64,000 bases of DNA from Escherichia coli (GTDB lineage: Bacteria; Pseudomonadota; Gammaproteobacteria; Enterobacterales; Enterobacteriaceae): assembly GCF_003334405.1 (NCBI RefSeq), contig NZ_QOWM01000005.1. One strand, written 5' to 3'. Below, piece by piece: positions 947-4,462 of this stretch (within the stretch, counting starts at the first letter, position 1; every line of letters starts with the position of its first letter). The notes under the pieces are model-generated. The model made no database searches, was not told where the DNA came from, and saw only the letters and a program-made list of their open reading frames with translations. Made by a program: the position numbers and the translations under genes.

Positions 947-1963
947 ATGTCCACATTACGCCTGCTCATCTCTGACTCTTACGACCCGTGGTTTAACCTG
1001 GCGGTGGAAGAGTGTATTTTTCGCCAAATGCCCGCCACGCAGCGCGTTCTGTTTCTCTGGCGCAATGCCGACACGGTAGTGATTGGTCGCGCGCAGAACC
1101 CGTGGAAAGAGTGTAATACCCGGCGGATGGAAGAAGATAACGTCCGCCTGGCGCGGCGCAGTAGCGGTGGCGGCGCGGTGTTCCACGATCTCGGCAATAC
1201 CTGCTTTACCTTTATGGCTGGCAAGCCGGAGTACGATAAAACCATCTCTACGTCGATTGTGCTCAATGCGCTGAACGCGCTCGGCGTCAGCGCCGAAGCG
1301 TCCGGGCGTAACGATCTGGTGGTGAAAACAGTCGAAGGCGACCGCAAAGTCTCAGGCTCGGCCTATCGCGAAACCAAAGATCGTGGCTTCCACCACGGCA
1401 CTTTGCTGCTCAATGCCGACCTTAGCCGCCTGGCAAACTATCTCAATCCGGATAAAAAGAAACTGGCGGCGAAAGGCATTACCTCAGTGCGTTCCCGCGT
1501 GACCAACCTCACCGAGCTGCTGCCGGGGATCACCCATGAGCAGGTTTGCGAGGTCATAACCAAGGCCTTTTTCGCCCATTATGGCGAGCGTGTAGAAGCG
1601 GAAATCATCTCCCCGGACAAAACGCCAGACTTGCCAAACTTCGCCGAAACCTTTGCCCGTCAGAGTAGCTGGGAATGGAACTTCGGTCAGGCTCCGGCAT
1701 TCTCGCATCTGCTGGATGAACGCTTTAGCTGGGGCGGCGTGGAACTGCATTTCGACGTTGAAAAAGGCCATATCACCCGCGCCCAGGTGTTTACCGACAG
1801 CCTCAACCCCGCGCCGCTGGAAGCCCTCGCCGGGCGACTGCAAGGCTGCCTGTACCGCGCGGATATGCTGCAACAAGAGTGCGAAGCGCTGTTGGTTGAC
1901 TTCCCGGACCAGGAAAAAGAGCTACGGGAGTTGTCGACGTGGATAGCGGGGGCGGTAAGGTAA
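947..1963 (+). CDS. lplA: lipoate-protein ligase A
   Basis: 338-aa [28 protein letters not shown], LplA family; RBS AAGGAAA upstream. Confidence 0.95.
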
Positions 1964-1994
1964 CTCGCTGATTAAAATACCAAAGGAAGGGAAT

Positions 1995-2258
1995 ATGATC
2001 GATCTGGAAAACCAGGAGCGGGAGATTATCAATTTAATGTTAAGCCAGCGTATTTCCTGGCTAGCCGCCGTGCGTATCAGGCATAAATTATCGCTTGCTG
2101 AAGTAAGTAAAATGTTAGGTATCTCGATTAATTCTCTAAAACAGATCGAAAAGACGGAACGGCTTAGCTCAAACATCAAAAGCAAAATGGCAGAAATTTA
2201 TGGTTGTCCACCAGAGTTGCTGATATGCCCTTCCTGGATGACGGCTGAACATAAATGA
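1995..2258 (+). CDS. small XRE/HipB-like helix-turn-helix protein (87 aa); possibly the HTH-only remnant of a yjjJ-type HipA-like kinase gene
   Basis: ORF with strong RBS AAGGAAGG 6 nt upstream of ATG; HTH motif LSLAEVSKMLGISINSLKQIEKTER; only 160 bp of AT-rich non-coding DNA follow before the deoD terminator. Confidence 0.6.
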   Translation: MIDLENQEREIINLMLSQRISWLAAVRIRHKLSLAEVSKMLGISINSLKQIEKTERLSSNIKSKMAEIYGCPPELLICPSWMTAEHK

Positions 2259-2353
2259 ATAGATTCGTGAATAGATACTTGAATGGATTTTATTTTCTAT
2301 CCATATGAAAAATAATAGTAAATCTATAAATCAGTTGCTATTGATGAATAGAT

Positions 2354-2386
2354 ACTAAAAAGCCGGAGCAGTCTCCTGCTCCGGCT
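2354..2386 (-). terminator. rho-independent terminator of the deo operon (after deoD)
   Basis: GC hairpin gccggagcag-tctc-ctgctccggc followed on the minus strand by a T-run. Confidence 0.75.
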
Positions 2387-2418
2387 TAACACGACGTTCG
2401 CCTTTCAGCGAAACACAA

Positions 2419-3138
2419 TTACTCTTTATCGCCCAGCAGAACGGATTCCAGTGCGATTTTGATCATGTCGTTGAAGGTGGTCTGACGCTCAGCGGCAGTG
2501 GTCTGCTCGTGAGTGCGGATGTGGTCAGACACGGTGCAGATGGTCAGGGCTTTCGCGCCAAACTCTGCAGCGACGCCGTAGATACCAGCCGCTTCCATTT
2601 CCACGCCGAGGATGCCGTATTTTTCCATCACGTCGAACATTTCGCCGTCCGGAGAGTAGAACAGGTCAGCGGAGAACAGGTTACCCACGCGAGCATCAAC
2701 ACCCAGTGCTTTAGCCGCGTCTACCGCGTTACGCACCATGTCAAAGTCAGCGATAGCGGCAAAGTCATGGTCTTTAAAACGGATACGGTTAACTTTGGAA
2801 TCGGTGCAGGCACCCATACCGATAACGACGTCGCGCAGTTTTACGTGCGGCAGAACTGCGCCACAGGAACCCACGCGGATAATTTTCTTCACGCCGAAAT
2901 CGGTGATCAGTTCTTTGGTGTAGATGGAGCAGGACGGGATACCCATACCGTGACCCATTACGGAAATTTTGCGGCCTTTGTAAGTACCGGTGAAGCCCAG
3001 CATACCGCGAACGTTGTTCACTTCACGGGCATCTTCAAGGAAAGTTTCAGCAATATACTTCGCACGCAGCGGGTCGCCTGGCATCAAAACTACGTCAGCG
3101 AAATCGCCCATTTCTGCATTAATGTGTGGGGTAGCCAT
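2419..3138 (-). CDS. deoD: purine nucleoside phosphorylase
   Basis: 239-aa [39 protein letters not shown]; deoCABD order. Confidence 0.97.
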
Positions 3139-3217
3139 TGTTTTATCCTTATCAACATGTTTTCACCCTCTCCCTGTGGGAGAGGGCCGGGGTGAGGGCA
3201 TCAAGCCGCACCCATTA

Positions 3218-4462
<1,245 letters not shown>

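What the first reader, a model, noticed from the sequence alone, without database searches (positions are those of the whole stretch)
1964..2418. yjjJ (HipA-like kinase) slot between lplA and deoD holds only an 87-codon HTH ORF
K-12 has the roughly 440-codon HipA-family kinase gene yjjJ between lplA and deoD, as I recall. Here the interval is 455 bp. It contains one well-formed ORF (1995-2258, RBS AAGGAAGG) encoding an XRE/HipB-like helix-turn-helix protein, then 160 bp of AT-rich DNA with two copies of gaatagatact (about 2269-2279 and 2347-2357), then the deoD terminator. The ORF is either a free-standing HipB-like regulator whose kinase partner was deleted, or the N-terminal HTH domain of a yjjJ-type gene truncated by deletion. 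I could not settle the orientation of yjjJ in K-12 from memory, so both readings stay open.
Basis: partly seen in the sequence, partly recalled or inferred. Interest (0 to 1): 0.45.

Follow-up and report, generated by a model that had tools for sequence, protein, structure and literature searches.

The report
Small regulator gene replacing hipH kinase
Between lplA and deoD this E. coli carries the common form of a two-form locus: a small, unrelated DNA-binding gene sits where K-12 has the HipA-like toxin kinase yjjJ/hipH, yet the kinase's upstream control DNA is still there.

Summary
lplA (947-1963, +), an 87-codon ORF (1995-2258, +), an AT-rich repeat region and the deoD terminator fill a 455-bp interval that in K-12 holds the 444-codon yjjJ/hipH.

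Neither proposed reading holds as written. hipH lies on the opposite strand, with its start on the deoD side. ORF87 shows no sequence similarity to YjjJ or to HipB. It is a generic XRE-family HTH protein.

The locus has two forms. 4058 of 5426 complete E. coli genomes carry ORF87 and 1348 carry hipH. In this form, 286 bp of low-GC DNA replace 1329 bp of hipH coding sequence.

The hipH upstream region is retained. It has four TGAATAGAT repeats (three tandem at a 12-bp period, one distal) and the TTTTCA-18-TC(C/T)ATT promoter geometry. The same array accompanies both cassettes in several enterobacterial genera and also lies upstream of hipH homologues only 35-39% identical. HipH proteins with a different HTH recognition helix have a different upstream repeat, so I infer the array is the HipH operator.

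ORF87 is a real gene (dN/dS about 0.15-0.3), but its function is not shown. My best guess is a local repressor that faces the retained promoter. This is a moderately interesting new member of known kinds.

The parts
947..1963 (+). lplA (lipoate-protein ligase), left border of the slot. Homology with the K-12 form ends at its stop codon.
1964..2249 (.). Allele-specific segment of 286 bp, about 41% GC. It occupies the place of 1329 bp of hipH/yjjJ coding sequence in K-12-type genomes and shows no similarity to it.
   Evidence: blastn breakpoints; alignments; GC content
1983..1990 (+). Shine-Dalgarno-like AAGGAAGG, 4 nt upstream of the ORF87 ATG. Only 31 nt and no terminator separate lplA from ORF87, so co-transcription with lplA is likely (inferred).
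1995..2258 (+). ORF87: an 87-aa XRE/Cro-C1-family helix-turn-helix protein with an N-terminal helix (residues 4-18) and a five-helix HTH core (22-76). RefSeq names it 'helix-turn-helix domain-containing protein' (WP_000566155.1 in an identical locus).
   Evidence: dN/dS is 0.15-0.3. Orthologues sit in the same slot in other genera.
2250..2252 (-). CAT, the position that aligns with the hipH start codon (ATG on the minus strand) of K-12-type loci. Here it is also His86 of ORF87. Homology between the two alleles resumes at this point.
2256..2288 (.). Three tandem 9-bp repeats at a 12-bp period: R1 2256-2264 TGAATAGAT (its TGA is the ORF87 stop codon), R2 2268-2276 TGAATAGAT, R3 2280-2288 TGAATGGAT. 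I infer these are HipH operator sites.
2282..2311 (-). Retained hipH-type promoter geometry on the minus strand: -35-like TTTTCA (2311..2306), an 18-nt spacer, and -10-like TCCATT (2287..2282, inside R3). This is the same geometry as the K-12 TTTTCA-18-TCTATT RpoD promoter reported from genomic SELEX. It points leftward, antisense to ORF87 and lplA.
   Evidence: PMC3946193. Activity in this strain was not tested.
2345..2353 (.). Distal repeat R4, TGAATAGAT, directly next to the deoD terminator. It lies roughly 45-55 nt upstream of the predicted leftward transcription start.
2360..2387 (-). deoD intrinsic terminator: a 12-bp stem, a 4-nt loop, and a T-run on the minus strand.
2419..3138 (-). 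deoD (purine nucleoside phosphorylase), right border of the slot.

Best explanation
Window 1964-2418 is the majority allele of a two-form chromosomal locus.

Shown:
- In the minority allele (K-12, E. albertii, about 25% of E. coli) the slot between the convergent genes lplA and deoD holds hipH/yjjJ. This is a HipA-family Ser/Thr kinase with its own N-terminal HTH, transcribed leftward from a promoter just downstream of the deoD terminator.
- In this allele the hipH coding sequence (1329 bp) is replaced by 286 bp of unrelated, lower-GC DNA. That DNA carries an oppositely oriented 87-codon XRE-family HTH gene. It is a replacement, not a truncation.
- The hipH 5' control region has been kept: four TGAATAGAT repeats and the TTTTCA-18-TC(C/T)ATT promoter geometry.
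- ORF87 is a real protein-coding gene under purifying selection. It is found only in this slot, in several enterobacterial genera.

Inferred:
- The repeats are the operator bound by the HipH HTH for autoregulation. They accompany hipH down to 35% protein identity, and a different HipH recognition helix goes with a different repeat.
- ORF87 is co-transcribed with lplA and meets the retained promoter head-on.

Most likely mechanism (a guess, roughly 30%): ORF87 is a small dimeric repressor that acts locally on the retained hipH control region. It would take over the autoregulatory role HipH had, and so limit antisense transcription into ORF87 and lplA.
For: Allele structure:
- Homology breakpoints fall exactly at the lplA stop codon and at the hipH ATG.
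- blastn, blastp and tblastn find no similarity between the two cassettes.

Frequencies: 4058 of 5426 genomes carry the ORF87 allele and 1348 of 5426 carry yjjJ. The sum is 5406, as expected if they are mutually exclusive.

Outgroups: most Enterobacteriaceae have an empty 50-110-bp slot.
- hipH sits in this slot, in this orientation, in E. albertii, Citrobacter sp., Kosakonia, Pseudocitrobacter, Leclercia and Silvania.
- ORF87 homologues sit in this slot, in the plus orientation, in Escherichia, UBA3516, Superficieibacter, Salmonella and others.

The repeat array:
- It is present in all full-length hipH loci and most ORF87 loci, and absent from empty or other-cargo slots.
- The 9-mer cores are 91% identical across lineages, against 51% for the spacer. 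ORF87-type arrays are as conserved as hipH-type arrays.
- hipH homologues at 35-39% identity on prophage-like contigs, including one from a 64%-GC host, have 3-4 tandem (A/T)TCTATTCA repeats just upstream of the ATG. HipH proteins with an (N/T)R(M/P/T)TL(S/A)RLV helix instead have TTCGTAAC..TAATTCGT sites.

Promoter: the geometry is conserved in both alleles. It matches the RpoD-SELEX promoter TTTTCA-18-TCTATT between deoD and yjjJ (PMC3946193). Reg-Seq reports two repressor sites at PyjjJ (PMC7567609).

ORF87:
- Pfam HTH_3, E=1.2e-6.
- AF2 pLDDT 88 with a Cro/C1 fold.
- dN/dS 0.15-0.3 within E. coli and across genera.
- GC 41.7% against 53-58% in the flanks.
Against: - No experiment shows what binds the repeats. 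ChIP-exo with tagged YjjJ found no binding sites in K-12 (bioRxiv 10.1101/2021.06.10.447994). Reg-Seq assigned one PyjjJ repressor site to MarA.
- An XRE dimer and the unrelated HipH HTH recognising the same direct repeats is a priori unlikely.
- ORF87 is intact in lineages where the array and promoter have collapsed to one repeat or degenerated (Salmonella L275, L083). Its recognition helix does not change there. Coupling between ORF87 and the array is therefore not obligatory.
- ORF87 is frameshifted or truncated in some lineages: E. coli PKF4 and S1-CAM-04-C, S. enterica subsp. indica, and a Klebsiella sp..
- Mutual exclusivity is inferred from counts, not checked genome by genome.
- Activity of the retained promoter in ORF87-type strains is untested.
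Confidence: 0.6

Rival explanations
1. Orphan antitoxin or anti-addiction reading. ORF87 is an XRE antitoxin-like protein that neutralises or represses HipH. It would be kept in strains that lost hipH, or selected because it blocks re-acquisition of hipH.
For: - HipB, an XRE protein, rescues YjjJ toxicity when overexpressed (reported in PMC9948734).
- ORF87 is XRE-family and is found only at the hipH locus.
- The hipH operator array is retained next to it.
- Its nearest relatives outside the slot are about 125-133-aa proteins with a C-terminal HTH that look antitoxin-like.
Against: - No locus has both genes. hipH is monocistronic in all 19 loci inspected and in the literature (PMC8262856).
- The two genes occupy the same coordinates on opposite strands.
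- There is no specific similarity to HipB and no HipB operator.
- ORF87-type genomes appear to have no hipH to neutralise.
Confidence: 0.12
2. The repeats are sites for a host-encoded factor, for example an OmpR/PhoB-type response regulator that binds direct repeats, MarA, or H-NS. They would be sites for neither HipH nor ORF87. They would be conserved because they control a promoter that matters for lplA or deoD expression through convergent transcription.
For: - The array is conserved in ORF87 loci that lack HipH.
- H-NS binding and a constitutive RpoD promoter were reported in this spacer (PMC3946193).
- A MarA assignment was made by Reg-Seq.
- ChIP-exo was negative for YjjJ.
- yjjJ-lplA is listed as a convergent excludon (PMC12288877).
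Against: - The repeat motif follows the HipH recognition-helix type rather than the host. A 64%-GC contig with an SQPTVSR helix keeps TCTATTCA repeats. Contigs of 62-65% GC with a different helix have a different motif.
- The array is absent from empty slots and from slots with other cargo.
Confidence: 0.15
3. ORF87 is a hitch-hiking gene that is losing or has lost its function. The array would persist in E. coli only through recombination with hipH alleles, or because too little time has passed for it to decay.
For: - Frameshifted or truncated copies occur in several lineages, and many short variants appear in protein databases.
- The tandem repeat copy number is unstable.
- The array has been lost in Salmonella and in L083.
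Against: - dN/dS is 0.15-0.3 even at saturated dS between genera.
- The full-length 87-aa protein is conserved in at least five lineages at the same slot.
- Among ORF87-type lineages of different genera, the 9-mer cores are 92-96% identical while the spacers are 55-66%.
Confidence: 0.12
4. Truncated yjjJ: the ORF is the N-terminal HTH domain of a yjjJ-type gene shortened by deletion.
For: Only positional: it lies in the yjjJ slot and encodes an HTH.
Against: - It is on the opposite strand to yjjJ, and the yjjJ N-terminus is on the deoD side.
- The best blastp alignment is 4 of 6 residues at E=0.21, and blastn finds no match.
- tblastn with YjjJ finds nothing in ORF87 loci.
- The domain families differ.
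Confidence: 0.01

Closest known systems
yjjJ/hipH locus of E. coli K-12 (HipA-family kinase HipH; Gerdes et al. 2021, PMC8262856; Gratani et al. 2022, PMC9948734)
   Same: - Same chromosomal slot between lplA and deoD.
- Same upstream control region: four TGAATAGAT repeats, TTTTCA-18-TC(T/C)ATT promoter geometry, and the deoD terminator.
- The flanks are 90-100% identical.
   Different: - There is no kinase gene here. The 1329-bp hipH coding sequence is replaced by 286 bp of unrelated DNA.
- The resident gene is on the other strand and is an XRE-type HTH protein, not a protein with a HipA_C domain.
HipB antitoxin / hipBA operon
   Same: A small protein of about 88 aa with an XRE-superfamily HTH, at a locus linked to a HipA-family kinase. 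HipB can counteract YjjJ toxicity (cited in PMC9948734).
   Different: - No detectable sequence similarity, and no HipB among PDB sequence or fold matches.
- No adjacent kinase.
- No TATCC-N8-GGATA operators.
- ORF87 converges on the promoter region rather than being transcribed from it.
Small Cro/C1-type regulators (CylR2, restriction-modification controller C proteins such as C.BclI and C.AhdI, SinR N-domain, P22 c2, CapH N-domain)
   Same: The fold is the same: Foldseek probability 1.0, TM 0.6-0.77 normalised to the target, rmsd 1.4-2.1 Å over 53-60 residues. Pfam matches HTH_3 and HTH_19. The size is that of a stand-alone dimeric repressor.
   Different: - Sequence identity is only 16-30%.
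- ORF87 has an extra N-terminal helix (residues 4-18) and a conserved C-terminal CP(S/Y)WM tail.
- The family is narrow: the enterobacterial lplA-deoD slot only.
- Its target DNA is unknown.
Chromosomal presence/absence and cassette-replacement polymorphisms of toxin-antitoxin genes at conserved intergenic hot spots
   Same: - Alternative cargos sit between two highly conserved core genes.
- Sequence divergence is raised right next to the junctions.
- The distribution across phylogroups and genera is patchy.
- The same slot carries other cargo in other genera: RAYT transposase, fimbrial-like genes, REP arrays.
   Different: The two cargos share a conserved regulatory array that survives the swap, and both forms recur across genera.

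Membership tests
XRE / Cro-C1 HTH (Pfam HTH_3, clan HTH) | Significant match to the HTH_3 profile over the whole domain | tested here: met
   HTH_3 E=1.2e-6, residues 23-76 against model positions 1-55 of 55. HTH_19, HTH_31 and HTH_25 also match. PADLOC HTH_VI E=4.5e-6 and phrog_7241 E=8e-11.
XRE / Cro-C1 HTH (Pfam HTH_3, clan HTH) | Five-helix globular fold with helices 2-3 forming the HTH | tested here: met
   AF2 pLDDT 88.4. Helices at 22-29, 34-41, 45-54, 59-69 and 73-76, plus an N-terminal helix at 4-18. The top Foldseek PDB hits are all Cro/C1-type domains.
XRE / Cro-C1 HTH (Pfam HTH_3, clan HTH) | Sequence-specific DNA binding, usually as a dimer | not testable with these tools
   Needs EMSA or footprinting.
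HipB antitoxin | Specific sequence similarity to HipB beyond the generic XRE level | tested here: not met
No HipB appears in the top 50 fold matches.
HipB antitoxin | Encoded in an operon with, and immediately upstream of, a HipA-family kinase | tested here: not met
   There is no kinase in the interval. tblastn with YjjJ finds no homologue within the stretch fetched for any ORF87-type locus. Up to 4 kb of flank was fetched where the contig allowed, and some Logan contigs are only 1.4-2 kb.
HipB antitoxin | TATCC-N8-GGATA operators in its own promoter (feature recalled from the hipBA literature) | tested here: not met
   No match with up to 2 mismatches lies in 1964-2418. There are 13 matches elsewhere in the window, against 18 expected by chance.
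HipH / YjjJ kinase (truncated member) | HipA_C kinase domain, or sequence homology to any part of YjjJ | tested here: not met
   YjjJ has HipA_C at residues 200-429, E=1e-20; ORF87 has none. The best blastp alignment is E=0.21 over 6 residues, and blastn finds nothing.
HipH / YjjJ kinase (truncated member) | Same strand and same 5' end as hipH at this locus | tested here: not met
   hipH is on the minus strand with its ATG at the deoD side. ORF87 is on the plus strand and ends where hipH begins.
hipH control region (promoter plus repeat array) | Tandem (A/T)TCTATTCA repeats at a 12-bp period, abutting the position of the hipH start, plus one distal copy | tested here: met
   Window copies are at 2256, 2268, 2280 and 2345. 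The R1-R3 block is 39 of 41 nt identical to K-12. The same layout is seen in 7 chromosomal hipH loci, and tandem repeats of the same core lie upstream of the ATG in 5 groups of viral-contig hipH loci.
hipH control region (promoter plus repeat array) | TTTTCA-17/18-TC(T/C)ATT promoter geometry pointing toward the cassette | tested here: met
   The window has TTTTCA-18-TCCATT on the minus strand. K-12 has TTTTCA-18-TCTATT, as reported in PMC3946193. Promoter activity was not tested.
hipH control region (promoter plus repeat array) | Repeats bound by the HipH N-terminal HTH | not testable with these tools
   Supported only by covariation of the repeat motif with the recognition helix. ChIP-exo in K-12 was negative. 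The AF2 model of the HipH N-domain has low confidence (pLDDT 43-55).
Type II toxin-antitoxin module | Adjacent toxin gene co-transcribed with the HTH protein | tested here: not met
   The neighbours are lplA and deoD only. No other ORF is conserved. The minus-strand ORFs after the retained promoter are in different frames in different genera (my reading of the sequences).

The most novel reading that the evidence does not exclude
hipH and ORF87 are two long-lived, mutually exclusive alleles that compete for one chromosomal slot across Escherichia and other Enterobacteriaceae. On this reading ORF87 has evolved to bind the HipH operator array, so the XRE allele silences the toxin-kinase promoter. 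It would act as an anti-addiction or immunity allele, or as the controller of an lplA antisense 'excludon'. That would be one operator served by two unrelated DNA-binding domains, maintained as a polymorphism shared between species.
Probability: 0.2. Interest if true: 0.6.

Novelty: new member of a known kind. Interest (0 to 1): 0.4.

Why it matters
K-12 is the reference strain for YjjJ/HipH biology, yet three quarters of complete E. coli genomes, including B/BL21, O157:H7 and this B1-like strain, have no hipH. They carry an uncharacterised XRE gene in its place, so results on HipH in K-12 do not transfer to most strains.

The comparison also gives a concrete, testable prediction for an open question raised by Gerdes et al. 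2021, namely how HipH is controlled and what its HTH binds. The prediction is four TGAATAGAT direct repeats overlapping the promoter and 5' UTR, with a different motif in the HipH subfamily that has a different recognition helix.

The shared control region flanked by two unrelated cassettes is a compact natural system for studying cassette replacement, orphaned operators and convergent transcription with lplA.

Nothing here is categorically new. The protein is an ordinary XRE fold, and presence/absence polymorphism of toxin genes is common.

Tried and rejected
1. Truncated yjjJ. Rejected on strand, position and lack of similarity.
2. Specific HipB relationship. Rejected.
3. Known RNA in the interval. 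Rfam at E<=10 gave only sub-threshold noise (CyaR 21 bits against 47 needed).
4. The TGAATAGAT array as a widespread phage element. A scan of viral contigs gave 89 loci in 52 families. A scrambled 9-mer of the same composition gave 74 loci in 59 families. The general occurrence is therefore background from 12-bp tandem repeats. Only the 4 loci that also encode a hipH homologue are meaningful; the control loci had none. A second scrambled control could not be run.
5. A conserved small ORF or peptide on the minus strand downstream of the retained promoter. The window and UBA3516 each have a 27-codon ORF, but in different frames and with unrelated sequences, so I rejected it (my reading).
6. The repeat motif near the closest non-slot relatives of ORF87 (P0081, locus L084). 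None found.
7. ORF87 on plasmids or phages. The only hits were mislabelled chromosome-size 'plasmids' and 31-40% identical generic regulators.
8. AF2 of full-length YjjJ, to classify its N-terminal HTH. Residues 1-55 have pLDDT 43-55, so this is inconclusive.
9. The generic sigma-70 scan found no minus-strand promoter in 1700-2600. The promoter geometry rests on comparison with the published K-12 SELEX promoter.
10. The 13-nt inverted repeat 1984-1996 / 2223-2235 (the RBS pairing with the ORF's 3' part) is not preserved in other E. coli alleles by eye. I did not pursue it.
11. Resemblance of TCT(A/G)TTCA to TorR boxes (CTGTTCATAT, recalled from memory). Noted as a lead only, not tested.
12. 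Literature searches for the motif, for HipH operators and for locus tags or accessions of ORF87 found nothing relevant.
Full report
**1. What is in the sequence**

lplA is 947-1963 (+) and deoD is 2419-3138 (-), which leaves 455 bp between them.
- The only well-formed ORF is 1995-2258 (+). It has 87 codons, an ATG start, and AAGGAAGG at 1983-1990.
- Downstream lies a stretch of 24% GC (2256-2356).
- The deoD terminator hairpin follows at 2360-2387.

The 'two copies of gaatagatact' belong to a four-copy 9-bp repeat, TGAATAGAT.
- Copies lie at 2256, 2268, 2280 (variant TGAATGGAT) and 2345. The first three are tandem at a 12-bp period.
- The three exact copies are the only ones in 64 kb. 0.42 are expected by chance, and 0 of 100 shuffles reached 3.

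**2. Comparison with K-12**

In a K-12-type genome (L001) the order is lplA(+), yjjJ(-), deoD(-) in window orientation.
- The yjjJ stop abuts the lplA stop.
- Its ATG lies 166 bp from the deoD stop.

So yjjJ/hipH is on the strand opposite to ORF87, and its N-terminal HTH is encoded at the deoD side.

Pairwise blastn places the homology breakpoints exactly.
- On the left, homology ends at the lplA stop codon (window 1963).
- On the right, it resumes at window 2250-2252. This CAT aligns with the reverse complement of the yjjJ ATG.
- Between these points, 286 bp here correspond to 1329 bp in K-12, with no nucleotide similarity on either strand.

ORF87 and YjjJ share no protein similarity. The best blastp hit is 4 of 6 residues at E=0.21. 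This refutes the 'truncated yjjJ' reading. The locus shows a replacement, not a deletion.

**3. How common each form is**

Of 5426 complete E. coli genomes, 4058 carry at least 80% of the 455-bp interval and 1348 carry yjjJ.
- The sum is 5406, so the two forms behave as mutually exclusive alleles. This rests on counts and was not checked genome by genome.
- ORF87-type strains include E. coli B, O157:H7, O111, O145 and HUSEC2011.
- yjjJ-type strains include K-12, and NRG857c according to PMC7232551.
- K-12 is therefore the minority state.

Identity to K-12 falls close to the junctions.
- The last 70 bp of lplA are 90% identical.
- Window 2250-2349 is 66% identical.
- Window 2350-2449 is 93% identical.
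- Further out, identity is 97-100%.

ORF87 alleles within E. coli differ by dS of 0.2-0.29. This fits old alleles or repeated import by recombination.

**4. What the ORF encodes**

- Pfam gives HTH_3 at E=1.2e-6 over the full model, plus HTH_19, HTH_31 and HTH_25.
- NCBIfam gives nothing above its cut-offs.
- PHROGs phrog_7241, 'transcriptional regulator', matches at E=8e-11.
- PADLOC HTH_VI matches at E=4.5e-6.
- AF2 with a 17-sequence alignment gives pLDDT 88.4. The model has an N-terminal helix (residues 4-18) followed by a five-helix Cro/C1 core.
- The best Foldseek PDB matches are dr_2454, CylR2, C.BclI, CapH-N, SinR-N, P22 c2 and DdrO. HipB is not in the top 50.
- phmmer against the PDB found only CylR2, at E=0.44.
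- No TATCC-N8-GGATA site lies in the interval.

'XRE-like' is supported. 'HipB-like' in any specific sense is not.

**5. Is it a real gene?**

Close homologues (above 70% identity) occur only in Escherichia: E. coli, Shigella, E. marmotae and Escherichia sp. E1130.

A search of 1.84 billion cluster representatives found a very small family. Beyond Escherichia there is one 44%-identical 87-aa protein (P0079). After that come 125-133-aa proteins with a related C-terminal HTH, and then generic XRE hits.

Every more distant ORF87 homologue whose context I could read sits in the same lplA-deoD slot in the same orientation:
- UBA3516 (L019) and Superficieibacter (L021).
- L083.
- A Salmonella enterica isolate (L275) and an unnamed Enterobacteriaceae contig (L277).

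Pairwise dN/dS is mostly 0.15-0.33, even where dS is saturated. The gene is therefore under purifying selection.

It is not indispensable. Disrupted copies occur in several lineages:
- Frameshifts in E. coli PKF4 and S1-CAM-04-C.
- A frameshift in S. enterica subsp. indica.
- A truncation by an inserted merR-like/CDF block in a Klebsiella sp..

ORF87 is 41.7% GC, against 53-58% for the flanks and 53.8% for K-12 yjjJ. It is absent from true plasmids and phages.

**6. The slot across Enterobacteriaceae**

I scanned one genome per species with LplA and obtained 80 loci.
- Most genera have an empty slot of 50-110 bp: Salmonella type strains, Citrobacter, Klebsiella, Enterobacter, Kluyvera and others.
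- hipH sits in the slot, in the K-12 orientation, in E. albertii (95% aa), Citrobacter sp. Cu233 (60%), Kosakonia pseudosacchari (62%), Pseudocitrobacter (69%), Leclercia (62%) and Silvania (61%).
- hipH remnants occur in Phytobacter and Kosakonia.
- E. whittamii has an 83-bp gap that keeps only part of the distal repeat, so it is a deletion derivative.
- Other species carry different cargo: a RAYT-type transposase, fimbrial-like proteins, a lipoprotein, a membrane protein, and REP arrays.

The slot is a general insertion hot spot, and hipH and ORF87 are two recurrent occupants.

**7. The repeat array belongs to hipH and survives the swap**

Between the window and K-12 the intergenic DNA is a mosaic.
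- The 41 bp holding R1-R3 are 39 of 41 identical.
- About 53 bp of spacer are essentially unalignable.
- R4 plus the terminator are nearly identical.

Across genera the same layout is seen. Two or three tandem copies abut the cassette and one distal copy lies 65-77 bp away.
- It is present in all full-length hipH loci.
- It is present in the ORF87 loci of Escherichia, UBA3516/L277 and Superficieibacter.
- It is present in several remnants.
- It is absent from empty or other-cargo slots.

The cassette boundaries relate to the array in a fixed way.
- The hipH ATG lies 3 nt (4 nt in the Phytobacter remnant) from R1.
- The ORF87 stop codon TGA is the first three bases of R1.

Over all pairs of nine loci the 9-mer cores are 91% identical and the spacers 51%. 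ORF87-type arrays are as conserved as hipH-type arrays.

**8. Evidence that the array is the HipH operator**

A pattern scan of viral contigs for two adjacent repeats found 89 loci.
- A scrambled control found 74.
- After collapsing redundancy the counts are 52 and 59 families. The motif is not generally enriched in phages.
- Four of the 89 loci encode a full-length HipH homologue (35% identity) with the repeats 17 nt upstream of its ATG. None of the control loci does.

A search with a HipH family alignment gave 21 further loci. Their upstream regions were then read.
- HipH proteins whose HTH helix reads SQ(A/P)T(F/I/L/V)SR all have 3-4 tandem (A/T)TCTATTCA repeats at a period of about 12 bp just upstream of the start. 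These are K-12, L255/L259, L261, L272 and L254. L254 comes from a 64%-GC contig.
- HipH proteins with (N/T)R(M/P/T)TL(S/A)RLV (L262-L267, 62-65% GC) instead have a TTCGTAAC(N)TAATTCGT-type site next to the start and a second copy about 125 nt upstream.

The motif thus follows the protein's recognition helix, not host composition. I infer that the repeats are bound by the HipH HTH for autoregulation.

This is inference only.
- ChIP-exo with tagged YjjJ found no sites.
- Reg-Seq reports two repressor sites at PyjjJ, one attributed to MarA.
- The AF2 model of the HipH N-domain has low confidence.
- No HipH structure has been solved.
- I found no paper describing a HipH operator.

**9. The retained promoter**

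Genomic SELEX with RpoD holoenzyme placed a constitutive promoter in the deoD-yjjJ spacer. It points toward yjjJ, has the form TTTTCA-18-TCTATT, and is bound by H-NS (PMC3946193).

The geometry (A/T)TTTCA-17/18-TC(T/C)ATT was found by pattern search in seven loci: four of the five ORF87-type loci and three of the seven hipH loci listed.
- By eye it also fits Superficieibacter (an ORF87-type locus) and Pseudocitrobacter (a hipH locus).
- The second hexamer lies inside the promoter-proximal repeat.
- In the window it is TTTTCA (2311..2306), 18 nt, then TCCATT (2287..2282), on the minus strand.
- If active, it starts transcription near 2275 and reads antisense through ORF87 into lplA.

In K-12, yjjJ-lplA is listed as a convergent excludon (PMC12288877). 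Activity in ORF87-type strains has not been tested.

**10. How it most likely works**

Shown:
- The allele structure.
- ORF87 as a constrained XRE-fold gene.
- Retention and conservation of the hipH control region.

Inferred:
- HipH binds the repeats.
- ORF87 is co-transcribed with lplA. The gap is 31 nt here and 8 nt in Superficieibacter, with no terminator.
- The retained promoter faces ORF87.

My committed guess is that ORF87 is a small repressor acting on this retained control region. It would replace HipH autoregulation and limit antisense transcription into ORF87 and lplA. I give this about 30%.

Three facts count against it.
- Two unrelated HTH domains would have to read the same direct repeats.
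- ORF87 stays intact where the array has collapsed to one hybrid repeat by R1/R4 deletion (Salmonella L275) or has degenerated (L083). Its recognition helix is unchanged there.
- The 12-bp unit count varies within E. coli.

The rivals are a host factor binding the repeats, an orphan anti-HipH protein, and a decaying hitch-hiker gene. They are set out separately with their tests.

**11. Novelty and verdict**

The protein is an ordinary XRE fold. RefSeq already annotates it as 'helix-turn-helix domain-containing protein'. Presence/absence polymorphism of toxin genes is common.

As far as my searches went, three points are not in the literature:
- K-12 hipH is the minority allele of a two-form locus that recurs across genera.
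- The alternative allele keeps the hipH control region.
- The TGAATAGAT array is a strong candidate HipH operator that covaries with the recognition helix.

I rate this a new member of known kinds, of moderate interest (0.4).

Noticed in passing
window 3139-3217 (deoB-deoD intergenic): This gap is 79 bp here and 56 bp in K-12, and only 54% identical over 3150-3248. The extra DNA is a GC-rich palindromic element...caccctctccctgtgggagagggccggggtgagggc.... It is the same kind of repeat that fills the lplA-deoD slot in some Enterobacter and Lelliottia species (L060, L067). From memory it looks like a BoxC-type repeat.
   Followed up: no
L003-L082, position about 5015 onward (lplA-deoD slot in 80 Enterobacteriaceae species): The slot is an insertion hot spot. 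Besides hipH and ORF87 it holds a REP-associated tyrosine transposase (L030, L079), fimbrial-subunit-like genes (L031, L055), a lipoprotein (L028), a 209-aa membrane protein (L061), a 406-aa secreted protein (L065) and REP/BIME arrays (L071, L060).
   Followed up: partly
L090 (E. coli XJ5.2) and hit H1 (E. coli CFSAN051542): IS elements have landed in the same intergenic region. In XJ5.2, IS1A and IS200C lie between yjjJ and deoD. In CFSAN051542, an IS1B interrupts an ORF87-type interval otherwise 100% identical to the window.
   Followed up: no
L262-L267 (viral contigs, 62-65% GC), 20-170 nt upstream of hipH homologues: A second putative HipH operator type, TTCGTAAC(N)TAATTCGT / ACGTAACACTATTCGT. 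One copy is next to the start codon and one is about 125 nt upstream. It goes with a different HTH recognition helix.
   Followed up: partly
window 1984-1996 and 2223-2235: A 13-nt inverted repeat, 92% complementary, pairs the ORF87 ribosome-binding site and start codon with a segment near the ORF's 3' end. It could sequester the RBS in the mRNA. It does not look preserved in other E. coli alleles.
   Followed up: partly
L275 and L280 (Salmonella enterica), 1760-1790: In Salmonella the array has collapsed to a single hybrid repeat joined directly to the terminator-proximal flank. This is as expected from recombination between R1 and R4, and it removed the promoter. ORF87 is intact in one isolate and frameshifted in subsp. 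indica.
   Followed up: yes
viral contigs L091-L179: TGAATAGATAA carries stop codons in all three frames (TGA, TAG, TAA). In the viral contigs, tandem 12-bp arrays of the TGAATAGAT core often sit immediately before a ribosome-binding site or next to a terminator. A scrambled control shows the overall frequency is background.
   Followed up: yes
L084 3147-3647 (Logan contig): The closest non-slot relative of ORF87 is P0081, 129 aa with a C-terminal HTH. It follows a 35-codon ORF and lies next to a DUF2357/PDDEXK_7 gene. This may be a small toxin-antitoxin-like or defence-associated pair.
   Followed up: no
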